A stretch of 16,618 nt of DNA, from UHGV virus genome UHGV-0216076. The stretch is one strand, 5' to 3'. Every line of letters begins with the position of its first letter. The stretch's first letter is position 1. A model generated the notes under the pieces. It ran no database searches, was not told the DNA's origin, and saw nothing but the letters and a program-made list of their open reading frames with translations. Shown here one piece after another: positions 8,992 to 13,741 of this stretch. This DNA is from a virus. A program made the position numbers and the translations under genes.

Positions 8992-9023
8992 GCCCTTTTT
9001 CAGGGCTGGGATGTGTAAGAGCG
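8992..9023 (-). promoter_or_regulatory. nutR (boxA plus boxB) N-utilisation site
   Basis: Minus strand reads CGCTCTTAC (boxA) then GCCCTGAAAAAGGGC (boxB hairpin), matching lambda nutR; sits between cro and cII. Confidence 0.8.
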
Positions 9024-9031
9024 GGAATGTC

Positions 9032-9247
9032 TTAAGCGGCTTTGTGTTCCGGCGGGAACACGTCATCAAGACTGACTTTTGCGCCCAACTTGTTTAGGCA
9101 CTCAACAAGAGCACGGCATGTTTTAAGGTCTGGGAAGCGACGACCAGATTCCCAATGTCCGATAGCTCCCTGTGTGCATCCAACTGCCTTAGCAAGTGTT
9201 GTTTGAGAGATATTCAGTGACTCTCGATATTTTCGTAGGTTGCTCAT
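9032..9247 (-). CDS. cro: Cro-like HTH repressor (non-lambda immunity type)
   Basis: 71-aa reading from MSNLRKYRESLNISQTTLAKAVGCTQGAIGHWESGRR; GGAGGG SD; first gene of the rightward operon, divergent from cI; recognition helix resembles that of the adjacent CI; unlike lambda Cro. Confidence 0.8.
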   Translation of the reverse strand: MSNLRKYRESLNISQTTLAKAVGCTQGAIGHWESGRRFPDLKTCRALVECLNKLGAKVSLDDVFPPEHKAA

Positions 9248-9273
9248 ATGCCCTCCATAGTAACCATGAAACA

Positions 9274-9302
9274 ATAATACGATATGTACTTTTAGAATGC
9301 AA
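9274..9302 (-). promoter_or_regulatory. PR early rightward promoter overlapping an operator dyad
   Basis: Minus strand TTGCAT-N17-TATTAT (-35 at 9297-9302, -10 at 9274-9279), 27 nt upstream of the cro ATG; the 15-bp dyad AATACGATATGTACT (9276-9290) overlaps the -10 and spacer. Confidence 0.6.
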
Positions 9303-9364
9303 ACAAAAAATACATCTTGTGCATGGATGGTTTTAGTACAGAGCGTAATAATAAGGGTATGAAA

Positions 9365-10018
9365 ATGAAATGGTATGAACTGGCTAGATCCAGAATGAAA
9401 GAGCTCGGCATAACTCAAGAGAAGTTAGCTGAAGAGCTTGGTATGACGCAGGGTGGAATTGGTCACTGGTTGCGCGGATCTCGTCATCCATCTCTTGACG
9501 AGATTGGTGTGGTGTTTAAATACCTTGGTATTGATAACGTCTCATTCAACCACGACGGTACATTTTCACCTGTTGGCGAATACTCATCTGCCCCCGTTAA
9601 AAAACAATATGAGTACCCTGTTTTTTCTCATGTTCAGGCCGGGATGTTCTCGCCTGAGCTTAGAACCTTTACCAAAGGTGATGCGGAGAGATGGGTCAGC
9701 ACAACCAAAAAAGCCAGTGATTGTGCGTTCTGGCTTGAAGTTGAAGGTAATTCCATGACCGCGCCAACAGGATCCAAGCCAAGCTTTCCTGACGGGATGT
9801 TAATTCTCGTTGACCCTGAGCAGGCTGTTGAGCCAGGTGATTTCTGCATAGCCAGACTTGGTGGTGACGAGTTTACCTTCAAGAAACTGATCAGGGATAG
9901 CGGTCAGGTGTTCCTACAGCCACTAAACCCGCAATATCCAATGATTCCATGCAATGATAGCTGTTCCGTAGTAGGGAAAGTTATCGCCAGCCAGTGGCCT
10001 GAAGAGACATTTAGTTAA
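9365..10018 (+). CDS. cI: CI repressor (HTH N-terminus, LexA/S24-type autocleavage C-terminal domain)
   Basis: N-terminal HTH ([23 protein letters not shown]); C-terminal S24 peptidase features (GNSM serine, downstream conserved lysine in FTFKKL); divergent from cro; start could be 9359 or 9365; unlike lambda CI. Confidence 0.85.
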
Positions 10019-10050
10019 CAGCCTCACAACTCTAAAACACACAACAATAA

Positions 10051-10078
10051 CCCGACCTTAGCGTCGGGTTTTCTTTTT
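10051..10078 (+). terminator. Intrinsic terminator downstream of cI
   Basis: Hairpin CCCGAC/GTCGGG with 6-nt loop followed by TTTTCTTTTT, about 30 nt after the cI stop. Confidence 0.6.
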
Positions 10079-10143
10079 CCAAAATATAAACCCATTAAAT
10101 ACAAAGCGTTATAAAAAACTAATTATATTTAGAACATTTTGTA

Positions 10144-10172
10144 TTGACTCGATAAAGTACAAATCGTACTAT
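10144..10172 (+). promoter_or_regulatory. PL early leftward promoter overlapping an operator dyad
   Basis: TTGACT-N17-TACTAT (-35 at 10144-10149, -10 at 10167-10172); perfect 15-bp dyad AGTACAAATCGTACT (10156-10170) overlaps spacer and -10; nutL follows 40 nt downstream. Confidence 0.6.
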
Positions 10173-10212
10173 TTAGCCATCAGCAGGACGCACTGACCAC
10201 CATGAAGGTGAG

Positions 10213-10242
10213 GCTCTTAAAAATTAAGCCCTGAAGAAGGGC
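10213..10242 (+). promoter_or_regulatory. nutL (boxA plus boxB)
   Basis: GCTCTTAA followed by boxB hairpin GCCCTGAAGAAGGGC, matching lambda nutL as recalled. Confidence 0.8.
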
Positions 10243-10510
10243 AGCATTCAAAGCAGAAGGCTTTGGGGTGTGGTGAAGCCAGCTAGTCACTGGCAAGTGC
10301 TTACCTACTGTTGAGCGGTGAAGCGCTCCCAACGCTAGCAATAGCGTGGACGAGATGGGGAGCCGCGGGCGATAAGGCCGCCATAACGCGCACGTTGTCG
10401 CATGGAAAAATCGCTGGGGTGCCGGTTATACCCCTCCGAATGAGACTCAACAAGCTGGAGCTAGACTACCAGCCACCACACCACCAAAGCTAACTGACAG
10501 GAGAATCCAG

Positions 10511-11408
<898 letters not shown>

Positions 11409-11531
11409 TTAAAAGACAGGCATACTAATAAACACTGCACTGTGTATTCATTCCAACGAGTGAATACACGGAGCAATGTCGCTCGTAACTAAACAGGAGC
11501 CGACTTGTTCTGATTATTGGAAATCTTCTTT

Positions 11532-11559
11532 GCCCTCCAATGTGAGGGCAGTTTTTTTT
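11532..11559 (+). terminator. Strong intrinsic terminator immediately upstream of the acidic-protein gene
   Basis: Perfect 7-bp stem TGCCCTC/GAGGGCA with 6-nt loop followed by G plus T8. Confidence 0.65.
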
Positions 11560-11572
11560 GACGGAGTAAACG

Positions 11573-11821
11573 ATGATAAAAACTGATTACCCTGCAGAGC
11601 TTAAACAAAAAGTAATAACAGCAATTAAATGCTCTTTTATCTCATGTCGTACAGATGAAGAACGATATGTCGTTGAGTGTACAATTGTCGAGTTTCTCAC
11701 AGCGATGGAATTTACCGCTGCAGAATCAATAGATGTATTAAAGCAATCAGACGGAAATGATATTGAAACGGATGATGTTATTGACCGACTAATAAAATCA
11801 TTCGAAGAAGAAATAGAGTAG
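11573..11821 (+). CDS. Hypothetical 82-aa strongly acidic protein
   Basis: GGAG SD 6 nt upstream; AT-rich; C-terminus DGNDIETDDVIDRLIKSFEEEIE is highly acidic; occupies the ral/anti-restriction slot of the PL operon. Confidence 0.6.
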   Translation: MIKTDYPAELKQKVITAIKCSFISCRTDEERYVVECTIVEFLTAMEFTAAESIDVLKQSDGNDIETDDVIDRLIKSFEEEIE

Positions 11822-11904
11822 CCGCCTGAGCGCGGCTTTACCGCATACCAATAATGCTTCACGAGAGGCATTTTCGTTATGCAATCAAATATAAGGAGTT
11901 ACCC

Positions 11905-12039
11905 ATGATGCACTTTCAGCTCGCGGGTAGCGGCGTCATGTCCGCTTTCTACCCGCACGAATCTGAATTATCACGCCGAGTTAAACAATTAATCAGAGCA
12001 GCAAAGAAACAACTGGAGGCGTTATGCGCAATGAAATAG
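11905..12039 (+). CDS. cIII: CIII-like protein (FtsH inhibitor that stabilises CII)
   Basis: 44-aa reading MMHFQLAGSGVMSAFYPHESELSRRVKQLIRAAKKQLEAL parallels lambda CIII (MQYAIAGWPVAGCPSESLLERITRKLRDGWKRL) including the amphipathic helix; AAGGAG SD. Confidence 0.75.
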   Translation: MMHFQLAGSGVMSAFYPHESELSRRVKQLIRAAKKQLEALCAMK

Positions 12040-12176
12040 CCATTAATCACCAGATGCTTCGTGCTGCACAGAACAAAGCAGTAATAGCCAGATTTATTGG
12101 TGATTCAAAAATGTGGCTTGAAGCAAATAAAGCGATGAAATCAGCTATCAACCTTCCGTGGTATCGCAGGAAATGA
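12024..12176 (+). CDS. Kil-like small protein
   Basis: 50-aa ORF MRNEIAINHQMLRAAQNKAVIARFIGDSKMWLEANKAMKSAINLPWYRRK; GGAGG SD; position after cIII as in lambda/P22; FIGD motif recalled from lambda Kil (uncertain). Confidence 0.45.
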   Translation: MRNEIAINHQMLRAAQNKAVIARFIGDSKMWLEANKAMKSAINLPWYRRK

Positions 12177-12251
12177 GTTTTACAGATAACTGGTCAGACG
12201 AAGAATTCATTCGTCAGATGAAAGATTTAATCGGTAACGAAGGAGATATTC

Positions 12252-12422
12252 ATGTCACTTGCAACCACAGTGAAGGAGAGCAAGTTACAGAGACGCATGT
12301 ACACGCAGAAAGCTCTCTGGTATCGCCATAATGGTGACCGCGAAGGGATGCGGGTATGCCTTAATTTGTCCCGAGTCGAAGTATTAAATCAGCGTTATTT
12401 CCTTGGGCCGTGTCCATTCTGA
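12252..12422 (+). CDS. Small 56-aa ORF upstream of erf (Arf-like by position), hypothetical
   Basis: AGGAG SD 6 nt upstream; ends 10 nt before the erf start; an alternative 52-aa ORF (12173-12331, ATGA-coupled to the Kil-like ORF) overlaps it in another frame, so only one is likely real. Confidence 0.35.
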   Translation: MSLATTVKESKLQRRMYTQKALWYRHNGDREGMRVCLNLSRVEVLNQRYFLGPCPF

Positions 12423-12432
12423 GAACAATAAT

Positions 12433-13038
12433 ATGAGCAAAGAATTTTACGCAAGACTGGCAGCTATTCAGGAGAATCTGAACGCGCCAAAGAATCAGTA
12501 CAACTCATTCGGCAAATATAAATACAGAAGCTGCGAAGACATTCTTGAAGGCGTTAAGCCGTTACTGAATGGCCTGTTTTTATCAATCAGCGATGAAGTT
12601 GTGTTGATTGGTGATCGGTATTACGTGAAAGCCACGGCAACTATTACCGATGGCGAAAACAGTCATACGGCAACCGCTCTTGCACGAGAGGAAGAAAGCA
12701 AGAAAGGAATGGATTCTGCACAAGTTACTGGAGCTACAAGCTCTTATGCACGCAAGTATTGCCTCAATGGTTTATTCGGCATTGATGATGCGAAAGATGC
12801 AGATACAGACGAGCATAAACATCAACAGAACGCAGCAGCAAAGCAATCAAAACCATCACCTACACCTGAACAGGTTCTAAAAGCATTCACTGACGCGGCA
12901 TTGCAGAAAAACACCGTGGAAGAGCTTAAACAGGCGTTCGCCAAAGCGTGGAAGATGCTCGAAGGCACACCGGAGCAGCACAAAGCGCAGGACGTTTACA
13001 ACATCAGACGAGACGAATTAGAAGGAGCGGCTGCTTAA
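12433..13038 (+). CDS. erf: Erf-family single-strand annealing protein
   Basis: Reading from MSKEFYARLAAIQENLNAPKNQYNSFGKYKYRSCEDILEGVKPLLNG resembles P22 Erf as recalled; replaces lambda Red exo/bet; stop overlaps the next start (TAATG). Confidence 0.8.
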   Translation: MSKEFYARLAAIQENLNAPKNQYNSFGKYKYRSCEDILEGVKPLLNGLFLSISDEVVLIGDRYYVKATATITDGENSHTATALAREEESKKGMDSAQVTGATSSYARKYCLNGLFGIDDAKDADTDEHKHQQNAAAKQSKPSPTPEQVLKAFTDAALQKNTVEELKQAFAKAWKMLEGTPEQHKAQDVYNIRRDELEGAAA

Positions 13039-13444: not shown

Positions 13445-13741
13445 ATGCCAGCGCCTATGTATGGTGCGGATGACCCGCGCCGCTGTTCCGGCAATTCTGT
13501 ATCGGAGGTGCTGGATAAATTCAGAAAAAACTACGATCGAATAATGTCTCTACCGCAGGAAACGAAAGAGGAAAAGGAATTTCGCCACTGTATATGGCTT
13601 GCAGAGAAAGAAGAACGCGAGCGAATTTACCAGACATCAATCCGACCATTCCGCAAAGCCACATATACCCACTTCCCTGAATATATCGACCCGCGCCTGC
13701 GTAATTACCGCTCACGCTATGGCGCTATCAGTAATGACTGA
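13445..13741 (+). CDS. Hypothetical 98-aa protein (Abc2-like anti-RecBCD by position only)
   Basis: AAGGA SD; follows erf/ssb where P22 carries abc genes; no sequence recognition. Confidence 0.55.

What the first reader, a model, noticed from the sequence alone, without database searches (positions are those of the whole stretch)
11573..11821. Small strongly acidic protein in the ral slot: candidate anti-restriction or anti-defence factor
The 82-aa protein has an extremely acidic C-terminal third and comes from an AT-rich gene. It is the first gene after N in the PL operon, gated by a terminator, in the slot where lambda carries the restriction-alleviation gene ral. Small acidic early proteins are often DNA mimics or inhibitors of host defence systems. 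It shows no resemblance to lambda Ral.
Basis: inference. Interest (0 to 1): 0.5.

Follow-up and report, generated by a model that had tools for sequence, protein, structure and literature searches.

The report
Small acidic early phage protein, function untested
This is a real, conserved 82-residue acidic four-helix protein carried as a one-gene cassette in the early leftward operon of a lambda-like prophage. Public phage annotation already labels its family "anti-restriction", but that label has no experimental or homology basis, and published data on a relative argue against classical restriction relief.

Summary
Window 11573-11821 (+) encodes an 82-aa protein with pI 4.27, 20 D/E against 9 K/R, and 34.5% GC against 47% for the window. 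It lies just after a strong terminator and just before cIII.

It is a genuine gene. It is about 99% identical to HK446 gp36, Kapi1_017 and ECP1_057, and occurs in 58 of 5426 complete E. coli genomes. Relatives at 25-45% identity occur in other lambdoid phages and in virulent Skatevirus phages. AlphaFold2 with the family alignment gives a confident four-helix bundle (pLDDT 91.7) whose acidic positions on helices 3-4 are conserved.

Two corrections:
- The terminator is the lambda tL2a / PreS small-RNA element, so the gene fills lambda's ea10 slot, not ral's.
- A reverse-strand Rip1 defence gene lies between N and this element.

There is no homology to Ral, Ea10, gp17, Pfam, NCBIfam, PADLOC or any PDB entry. 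The only database label is PHROG 14587 "anti-restriction"; the only independent source I found for it is the ECP1 record's "ral" product name.

The gene was already in a 200-gene accessory-gene screen (orf194) and is not among the hits those papers name. Skatevirus Bas77, which carries a homologue, is restricted as strongly as relatives that lack one.

Best reading: an N-dependent early protein-binding inhibitor whose target is unknown. Classical anti-restriction is unlikely.

The parts
11573..11821 (+). 82-aa acidic protein gene, a member of PHROG 14587. It is ~99% identical to HK446 gp36, Kapi1_017 and ECP1_057. The predicted fold is a four-helix bundle (H7-21, H28-44, H49-58, H64-81).
11563..11566 (+). 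Shine-Dalgarno GGAG, 6 nt upstream of the ATG
   Evidence: read directly from the sequence
11561..11843 (+). Single-gene cassette of 283 bp (ribosome-binding site, ORF and a GC-rich hairpin). It is present in the window, HK446 and Kapi1 and absent from HK97, whose flanks are otherwise collinear. No promoter-like site on this strand within or just upstream.
11820..11837 (+). GC-rich hairpin AGCCGCCTGAGCGCGGCT overlapping the stop codon, at the 3' end of the cassette. It has no T-run on the + strand. Its role is unknown.
11530..11559 (+). Intrinsic terminator (8-bp GC-rich stem plus T8) immediately upstream. It is the homologue of lambda tL2a, so reading into the gene should need N antitermination (inferred).
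11437..11559 (+). Conserved non-coding element that differs by one base up to the T-tract from the lambda ral-ea10 intergenic region. That region encodes the Hfq-dependent sRNA LPR1/PreS, which ends at tL2a. This element forms the left flank of the slot.
11905..12039 (+). cIII, the right flank of the slot. The likely start is the second in-frame ATG pair, MMHFQ, as in HK97; the mechanical ORF starts at 11854.
10511..10834 (+). Lambda-type antiterminator N. It supplies the read-through needed to express the gene (inferred from lambda biology).
10228..10242 (+). GCCCTGAAGAAGGGC hairpin upstream of N. I recognise it as lambda nutL boxB from memory; no tool confirmed that identity.
   Evidence: hairpin listed on the - strand; identity from memory

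Best explanation
The gene is a promoterless, single-gene accessory cassette in the delayed-early leftward (PL) operon of a lambdoid prophage. It sits directly behind the PreS/tL2a terminator, in the place where lambda has ea10. It is therefore silent in the lysogen and made only after induction or infection, once N lets RNA polymerase read through the terminator.

Its product is a compact, strongly acidic four-helix bundle. Nearly all exposed positions of helices 3 and 4 are conserved Asp/Glu.

Most likely it works stoichiometrically: it binds a positively charged, probably nucleic-acid-binding, surface of a host or rival-element protein and blocks it. That would make it an early counter-defence or host-takeover inhibitor with a narrow target range.

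The target is probably not one of the common E. coli type I, II or III restriction systems.

Shown here: the gene is real, its family is conserved, and its fold, charge pattern, position, cassette boundaries and silence in a lysogen are established. Inferred: N-dependence, a protein-binding inhibitory mode of action, and the class of target.
For: Family, fold and charge:
- The family is conserved and confidently folded.
- Acidity is conserved, net -9 to -20. The conserved acidic columns are 28, 40, 49-51, 54, 65, 67, 68, 71, 72, 75 and 76, and the hydrophobic core pattern is conserved.

Position and expression:
- The cassette lies exactly between the tL2a-type terminator and cIII.
- No convincing promoter-like site lies upstream on the + strand.
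- Kapi1_017, about 99% identical, was not detected in lysogen RNA-seq, like kil and cIII.

Accessory-slot behaviour:
- A 45%-identical homologue sits directly after an N gene and before cIII and erf in a different lambdoid lineage.
- In Skatevirus the homologue is the promoter-proximal first gene of a divergent operon. That position is variable between close relatives.
- SeSz-2 has two diverged paralogues.
- The identical lambdoid slot otherwise holds other small acidic proteins: Ea10 (net -14) and gp17 (net -14, PHROG label 'superinfection exclusion').
- A defence gene, a Rip1 homologue, lies next door.
- An independent algorithm already picked the gene as an accessory gene.
Against: - The near-identical orf194 is not named among the confirmed counter-defence or cell-death-trigger genes in a screen of ECOR strains with 8 phages. 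I could not see its per-gene scores, and only 196 of the 200 genes were scored in the published version.
- Bas77, which has a homologue, behaves like Bas78, Bas79 and Bas80, which lack one, on six R-M systems and on RexAB, PifA and Fun/Z. Old sensitivity does not track the gene either.
- Many small phage proteins are acidic, so charge alone is weak evidence.
Confidence: 0.45

Rival explanations
1. It is a classical anti-restriction protein. Either it is a DNA mimic that blocks type I (or type III) R-M enzymes as Ocr and ArdA do, or it is a functional analogue of Ral that alleviates EcoKI-type restriction.
For: - Small, acidic, early, AT-rich gene in the N-cIII accessory region.
- PHROG 14587 and RefSeq call the family 'anti-restriction protein', and the ECP1 record calls it 'antirestriction protein ral'.
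- In SeSz-2 a paralogue occupies the position where relatives carry a C5 DNA methyltransferase.
Against: - No similarity to Ral by BLAST or profile comparison. Ral is a different PHROG (1055) and is basic, pI 8.8.
- No sequence or fold match to Ocr, ArdA, Arn or KlcA among the listed hits.
- The only independent source I found for the label is the unvalidated ECP1 product name.
- The screen that recovered Ocr, Ral and ArdA does not name orf194 among its hits.
- Bas77, which has a homologue, plates at about 0.04-0.1 on EcoKI (1 site) and about 1e-3 on EcoCFT_I (2 sites). On EcoRI, EcoRV, EcoCFT_II and EcoP1_I it plates at 1e-5 to 1e-7. Bas78, Bas79 and Bas80, which lack a homologue, give the same values.
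Confidence: 0.1
2. It is a non-defence early function. It would tune the phage's own programme or host physiology, for example DNA replication, recombination or the nucleoid, or the lysis-lysogeny decision, as its operon neighbours cIII, Kil, Erf and Abc2 do.
For: - It is co-transcribed with cIII, kil, erf and an Abc2-like gene.
- In Skatevirus it heads an operon with a ParB-like protein, a DNA methyltransferase and RusA. In another phage group it follows the primase-helicase.
- No defence-related phenotype has been reported.
Against: - It is dispensable and patchy. It occurs in 58 of 5426 E. coli genomes, against 2245 that carry the flanking PreS element. It is absent from HK97 and from Bas78 and Bas79.
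- It is swapped with unrelated cargo at two independent slots. That pattern suits an arms-race gene better than a developmental one.
Confidence: 0.3
3. It is a factor in competition between phages. It would either let the phage escape exclusion by resident prophages or act against co-infecting phages. I recall that role being described for P22 gene 17; I did not verify it here.
For: - gp17 (PHROG 1510, 'superinfection exclusion') occupies the identical slot in H-19B.
- A Rip1-type prophage defence gene is adjacent in this window and in HK446.
Against: - No homology to gp17.
- It is not linked to Rip1: only 3 genomes carry both together, against 58 with the gene.
- It is not expressed from the Kapi1 prophage, so it cannot act as a lysogen-expressed exclusion function.
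Confidence: 0.12
4. It is not a functional gene, only a chance ORF in AT-rich spacer DNA.
For: An overlapping 94-aa ORF exists on the opposite strand.
Against: Protein-level conservation holds down to 25-45% identity across distinct phage groups. The core pattern is conserved, a ribosome-binding site is present, and the model reaches pLDDT 91.7.
Confidence: 0.01

Closest known systems
PHROG 14587 / HK446 gp36 (AFH20664.1, YP_007111989.1), Kapi1_017, ECP1_057
   Same: The same gene. Identity is about 99% (T37A relative to HK446), with a full-length profile match at E 5e-48 and the same position between the terminator and cIII.
   Different: Nothing of substance differs. The family's 'anti-restriction' name is an annotation, not a tested function.
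Lambda Ral (PHROG 1055)
   Same: Both are small early proteins in the N-cIII accessory region of the PL operon.
   Different: There is no sequence or profile similarity. Ral is basic (pI 8.8) and Cys-rich. Ral lies upstream of the PreS/tL2a element, whereas this gene lies downstream of it.
Lambda Ea10 (PHROG 646) and P22/H-19B gp17 (PHROG 1510)
   Same: They are alternative cargo of exactly the same slot, between the tL2a-type terminator and cIII, with homologous flanks. They are also small and strongly acidic (net -14).
   Different: There is no detectable homology (hhalign probability under 1%). They are longer (122 and 103 aa). Ea10's function is not understood.
Ocr (T7 gp0.3) and ArdA DNA-mimic anti-restriction proteins
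   Same: All are early-expressed, small, very acidic and promoter-proximal. In Skatevirus the homologue is the first gene of its operon, as 0.3 is in T7 (the T7 gene position is from memory).
   Different: There is no sequence or fold similarity. A phage that carries a homologue is fully sensitive to two type I systems. The screen that recovered Ocr and ArdA did not report this gene.
N-terminal four-helix bundle of B12-dependent photoreceptors (AerR 7te2, CarH 5c8d)
   Different: Identity is 3-6%, and the B12-binding Rossmann domain is absent. This is a generic up-down bundle resemblance with no functional implication.

Membership tests
PHROG 14587 (labelled 'anti-restriction protein') | Full-length match to the family profile | tested here: met
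   E 5.3e-48 over residues 1-82 of an 82-position profile. The Skatevirus and other lambdoid homologues hit the same PHROG.
PHROG 14587 (labelled 'anti-restriction protein') | Demonstrated relief of restriction by any member | tested here: not met
   I found no experimental report. Bas77, which carries a member, is restricted like relatives that lack one. orf194 is not named among the screen hits. This evidence is indirect, not an isogenic test.
Lambda Ral family (PHROG 1055) | Sequence homology to lambda Ral | tested here: not met
   BLASTP E 16; hhalign probability 0.1%.
Lambda Ral family (PHROG 1055) | Position between orf28/sieB and the tL2a/PreS element | tested here: not met
   The gene lies downstream of the PreS/tL2a homologue, in the ea10 position.
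Lambda Ral family (PHROG 1055) | Enhances modification and alleviates restriction by EcoKI-type enzymes | not testable with these tools
   This needs phage plating on r+m+ hosts with and without the gene.
DNA-mimic anti-restriction proteins (Ocr, ArdA) | High density of surface Asp/Glu | tested here: met
   24% D/E, net -11, pI 4.27. The acidity is conserved across the family.
DNA-mimic anti-restriction proteins (Ocr, ArdA) | Fold or sequence related to Ocr or ArdA, or an elongated dimer that mimics bent B-DNA | tested here: not met
DNA-mimic anti-restriction proteins (Ocr, ArdA) | Blocks type I R-M in vivo | tested here: inconclusive
   Only indirect data exist. Bas77, with a ~40%-identical homologue, has an EOP of about 1e-3 on EcoCFT_I with 2 sites, the same as Bas78 and Bas79. 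The window protein itself has not been tested.
Lambda Ea10 / P22 gp17 (cargo of the same slot) | Sequence homology | tested here: not met
   BLASTP found nothing. hhalign probabilities were 0.13% and 0.16%.
Lambda Ea10 / P22 gp17 (cargo of the same slot) | Same insertion point between the tL2a-type terminator and cIII | tested here: met
   Shared flanks in mEpX2 (Ea10), H-19B (gp17), HK97 (empty slot) and the window.
Colicin E7 immunity protein (Im7) | Significant sequence similarity | tested here: not met
   The single-sequence E value was 0.22. The hit disappeared when the family profile was used. Im7 is not among the listed fold matches.

The most novel reading that the evidence does not exclude
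The PHROG 14587 family is a new structural class of phage counter-defence protein. It would be a compact acidic four-helix bundle that neutralises a defence system, or a nucleic-acid-binding host factor, not covered by the ECOR and BASEL test panels. Phages would install it at the promoter-proximal or first-expressed accessory slot in both temperate lambdoids (the ea10 slot behind PreS/tL2a) and virulent Skateviruses. By extension, the tL2a-cIII slot (Ea10, gp17, this gene) would be a dedicated hotspot for acidic inhibitors.
Probability: 0.25. Interest if true: 0.6.

Novelty: already known. Interest (0 to 1): 0.3.

Why it matters
If the protein does inhibit a defence system, it would add a new fold and target to the anti-defence catalogue. 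It would also give meaning to a slot whose lambda occupant, ea10, is still not understood.

The practical value of this check is more modest:
- The widely propagated "anti-restriction protein" label for this family rests on no evidence I could find, and published plating data on a relative contradict it.
- The gene's true positional counterpart in lambda is ea10, behind the PreS sRNA/tL2a element, not ral.
- The gene has already been picked and screened once, and no phenotype was reported.

Tried and rejected
- **Ral homology:** BLASTP and profile comparison found none.
- **Ea10 and gp17 homology:** none.
- **Pfam, NCBIfam and PADLOC:** nothing reached a threshold, scanning the single protein against all three and every family member against Pfam.
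- **PDB by sequence:** a weak Im7 hit (E 0.22) looked tempting because Im7 is an acidic helical nuclease inhibitor, but it vanished with the family profile.
- **Fold searches:**
  - Foldseek against the PDB gave nothing at E <= 0.001.
  - BFVD returned only family members.
  - The AlphaFold database library was not available.
- **Antidote to the neighbouring Rip1 defence gene:** rejected, because only 3 genomes carry both together against 58 with the gene. Kapi1, ECP1 and E. coli C41 have other neighbours.
- **Paralogue alternating with a DNA methyltransferase in Skatevirus:** the paralogue occurs only in SeSz-2 and SEzh_1, too few cases to carry weight.
- **Plasmid leading-region location, as for ArdA:** only two 165-kb conjugative plasmids carry a 98.8%-identical copy. 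I did not pursue this.
- **Per-gene screen scores for orf194:** I could not find them in the held supplementary files.
- **Rfam scan of 9000-13000:** no significant family; PreS did not come up as a family.

Full report
**What is there.** The window is a mosaic lambdoid (pro)phage, and the + strand runs in the direction of the early leftward (PL) operon.
- Gene order is cI (9317-10018), a GCCCTGAAGAAGGGC hairpin at 10228-10242, lambda-type N (10511-10834), a reverse-strand 167-aa gene (10827-11330), and a conserved non-coding element ending in a strong terminator (11530-11551 plus T8).
- Then come the 82-aa ORF (11573-11821), cIII, kil, a small ORF and erf. I recognise the hairpin upstream of N as lambda nutL boxB from memory only.
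A GGAG ribosome-binding site lies 6 nt before the ATG.

**It is a real gene with a small family.**
- The same gene at about 99% identity is HK446 gp36, Kapi1_017 and ECP1_057. It occurs in 58 of 5426 complete E. coli genomes, always on the chromosome, and in two large conjugative plasmids.
- An exhaustive HMMER scan of 1.84 billion representative proteins found 17 clusters. A profile search found 43.
- tblastn found relatives at about 40% identity in 107 virulent siphovirus records. These are Skatevirus-type phages of Salmonella, Klebsiella and E. coli, and many of the records are variants of one phage.
- Alignments show invariant A17, C25 and F41, near-invariant E40, G61 and D67, and a conserved hydrophobic pattern.
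- Strong acidity is conserved across the family, with net charge -9 to -20 and median -13.5. The conserved acidic columns are concentrated on helices 3 and 4, and K11 and K13 are conserved basic positions.
- AlphaFold2 without an alignment was poor (pLDDT 61). With the 38-sequence alignment it gave a confident four-helix bundle (pLDDT 91.7, pTM 0.80).

**Position, refined.** Alignment with HK97 shows a discrete 283-bp cassette (11561-11843) made of the ribosome-binding site, the ORF and a GC-rich hairpin. It is inserted between the terminator's T-tract and the sequence that leads into cIII.
- The 120 nt upstream of the cassette differ by one base up to the T-tract from the lambda ral-ea10 intergenic region.
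- A 2024 preprint shows that this lambda region encodes the Hfq-dependent sRNA LPR1/PreS, whose 3' end is terminator tL2a (bioRxiv 10.1101/2024.10.31.621285).
- The element folds well (z = -3.6) and is present in 2245 of 5426 E. coli genomes.
- The gene therefore occupies lambda's ea10 slot, not ral's. With the same flanks the slot holds Ea10 in mEpX2, gp17 in H-19B and nothing in HK97.
- Ea10 (net -14), gp17 (net -14) and lambda orf28 (net -12) are also strongly acidic, whereas Ral is basic with pI 8.8.
- A 45%-identical homologue sits directly after an N gene and before cIII and erf in another lambdoid lineage.
- In Kapi1 lysogens the gene is not expressed, like kil and cIII (PMC12922286). 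This fits repression of PL and dependence on N read-through, which remains an inference.

**What it is not.**
- There is no similarity to Ral, Ea10 or gp17 by BLAST or profile comparison.
- Nothing in Pfam, NCBIfam or PADLOC reaches a threshold.
- A weak Im7 hit against PDB sequences vanished when the family profile was used.
- Foldseek against the PDB finds nothing significant, and BFVD returns only family members.
- No Ocr, ArdA, Arn, KlcA or other known DNA mimic or anti-defence protein appears among the listed matches.

**The existing label.**
- PHROG 14587 is named 'anti-restriction protein' and matches at E 5e-48. RefSeq and pharokka-style annotations repeat that name.
- The original HK446 and Kapi1 records say 'hypothetical protein'. 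The only independent source I found is ECP1's product name 'antirestriction protein ral', which the homology tests contradict.
- True Ral is a separate family, PHROG 1055.
- I found no experimental paper on the family.

**Published data that bear on function.**
- Silas et al. (bioRxiv 10.1101/2023.04.06.535777) list HK446 AFH20664.1, which differs from the window protein by T37A, as UDP0194 (orf194). It is one of the 200 accessory genes in their library for screening in ECOR strains with eight phages, and carries no annotation comment.
- orf194 is absent from the main text.
- The named counter-defence hits are ocr, ral, ardA and orfs 48, 63, 92, 116, 126, 143 and 148. The named cell-death triggers do not include orf194 either.
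- I could not retrieve per-gene scores, and the published version scored 196 of the 200 genes. This is therefore an absence of reported phenotype, not a proven null.
- In the BASEL collection (PMC11990801), Skatevirus Bas77 carries a homologue as the first gene of a divergent operon. The operon runs X, a small ORF, a ParB-like gene, a C5 methyltransferase, a small ORF and RusA.
- Its close relatives Bas78 and Bas79 have unrelated, non-acidic genes in that first position. No family member was found in the fetched region of either by profile search, or in any Bas78-81 genome record by tblastn.
- Plating efficiencies are the same within noise. For Bas77 they are about 0.04-0.1 on EcoKI, about 1e-3 on EcoCFT_I and 1e-5 to 1e-7 on EcoRI, EcoRV, EcoCFT_II and EcoP1_I. 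Bas78, Bas79 and Bas80 give matching values.
- RexAB, PifA and Fun/Z do not affect any of these phages. Old sensitivity does not track the gene.
- These phages are not isogenic, and the homologue is only about 40% identical to the window protein. Even so, this argues against a general anti-R-M function for the family.

**Interpretation.** The anatomy fits a fast-exchanging early effector:
- a promoterless cassette behind an N-suppressible terminator;
- placement in promoter-proximal variable slots in two unrelated phage lineages;
- a paralogue pair in SeSz-2;
- a patchy distribution;
- a conserved acidic face on a compact bundle.

My best estimate (0.45) is a stoichiometric inhibitor that binds a basic surface on a host or rival-element protein, with a narrow target not represented in the panels tested so far. 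A non-defence early role in DNA metabolism or development is the main rival (0.3). Escape from exclusion by other phages gets 0.12. Classical anti-restriction gets 0.1. A chance ORF is excluded.

**Novelty and score.** The gene, its family, its 'anti-restriction' label and its status as an accessory gene are all already in public databases and in a published screen. The finding is therefore not new, and the proposed function remains unproven and partly contradicted. Interest is modest (0.3). It would rise to about 0.6 if the family proved to be a new class of defence inhibitor, which I rate at about 0.25.

Noticed in passing
window 10827-11330 (- strand): The 167-aa gene convergent with N, in the position of lambda sieB, is a close homologue of PDB 9oox chain L, 'ring interacting pore 1 (Rip1)' (E 1.6e-105 over residues 6-167). 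A 2026 review describes Rip1 as a prophage-encoded single-protein abortive defence that assembles around phage small-terminase or portal rings to form a membrane pore. PHROG 1244 still lists the family as unknown function.
   Followed up: partly
window ~11437-11559 (+ strand): This non-coding element differs by one base up to the T-tract from the lambda ral-ea10 intergenic region. That region encodes the Hfq-dependent sRNA LPR1/PreS, which ends at terminator tL2a. The element folds with z = -3.6, matches in 2245 of 5426 complete E. coli genomes, and gave no Rfam match.
   Followed up: partly
L004 (lambda), L016 (mEpX2), L017 (H-19B), same slot as window 11561-11843: The alternative cargo of the tL2a-cIII slot is also small and strongly acidic: Ea10 (122 aa, net -14) and gp17 (103 aa, net -14). 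Lambda orf28 nearby is 28 aa with net -12. None is homologous to the window protein. The slot may be a hotspot for acidic effectors.
   Followed up: partly
L014 (Salmonella phage SeSz-2) 3501-3761 and 4766-4990: SeSz-2 carries two diverged paralogues of the family in one operon. The second (gp60, 74 aa, 25% identical to the window protein) sits where Bas77 and other relatives carry a C5 DNA methyltransferase. Only SeSz-2 and SEzh_1 have it.
   Followed up: partly
L005, L019, L020 (Bas77, Bas78, Bas79): The first gene of the divergent operon (X, ParB-like, methyltransferase, RusA) is a variable slot among near-identical Skateviruses. It holds a family member in Bas77, a 114-aa phrog_1273 protein in Bas78 and a 207-aa phrog_2260 protein in Bas79. 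Bas80 is fully resistant to Old, unlike Bas77, Bas78 and Bas79.
   Followed up: partly
window 11820-11837: A GC-rich hairpin (AGCCGCCTGAGCGCGGCT) overlaps the stop codon and ends the cassette. It has no T-run on the + strand. The scan lists it as terminator-like on the - strand.
   Followed up: no
L003 (Kapi1) 2288-2971: In Kapi1 the gene immediately upstream of the cassette is annotated with an Nmad5 (nucleotide-modification-associated) domain instead of the Rip1 homologue. This shows that the region upstream of PreS is itself a variable slot.
   Followed up: no
plasmids CP098966.1 (125298-125543) and CP099047.1 (125585-125830): Two ~165-kb conjugative E. coli plasmids carry a 98.8%-identical copy of the gene. 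This may be a prophage or phage fragment inserted in the plasmid.
   Followed up: no
window 13445-13741 (+ strand): This 98-aa ORF looks Abc2-like (anti-RecBCD), judged by eye from its position and from the HK446 annotation of the equivalent gene. If so, RecBCD inhibition is probably already covered in this operon.
   Followed up: no
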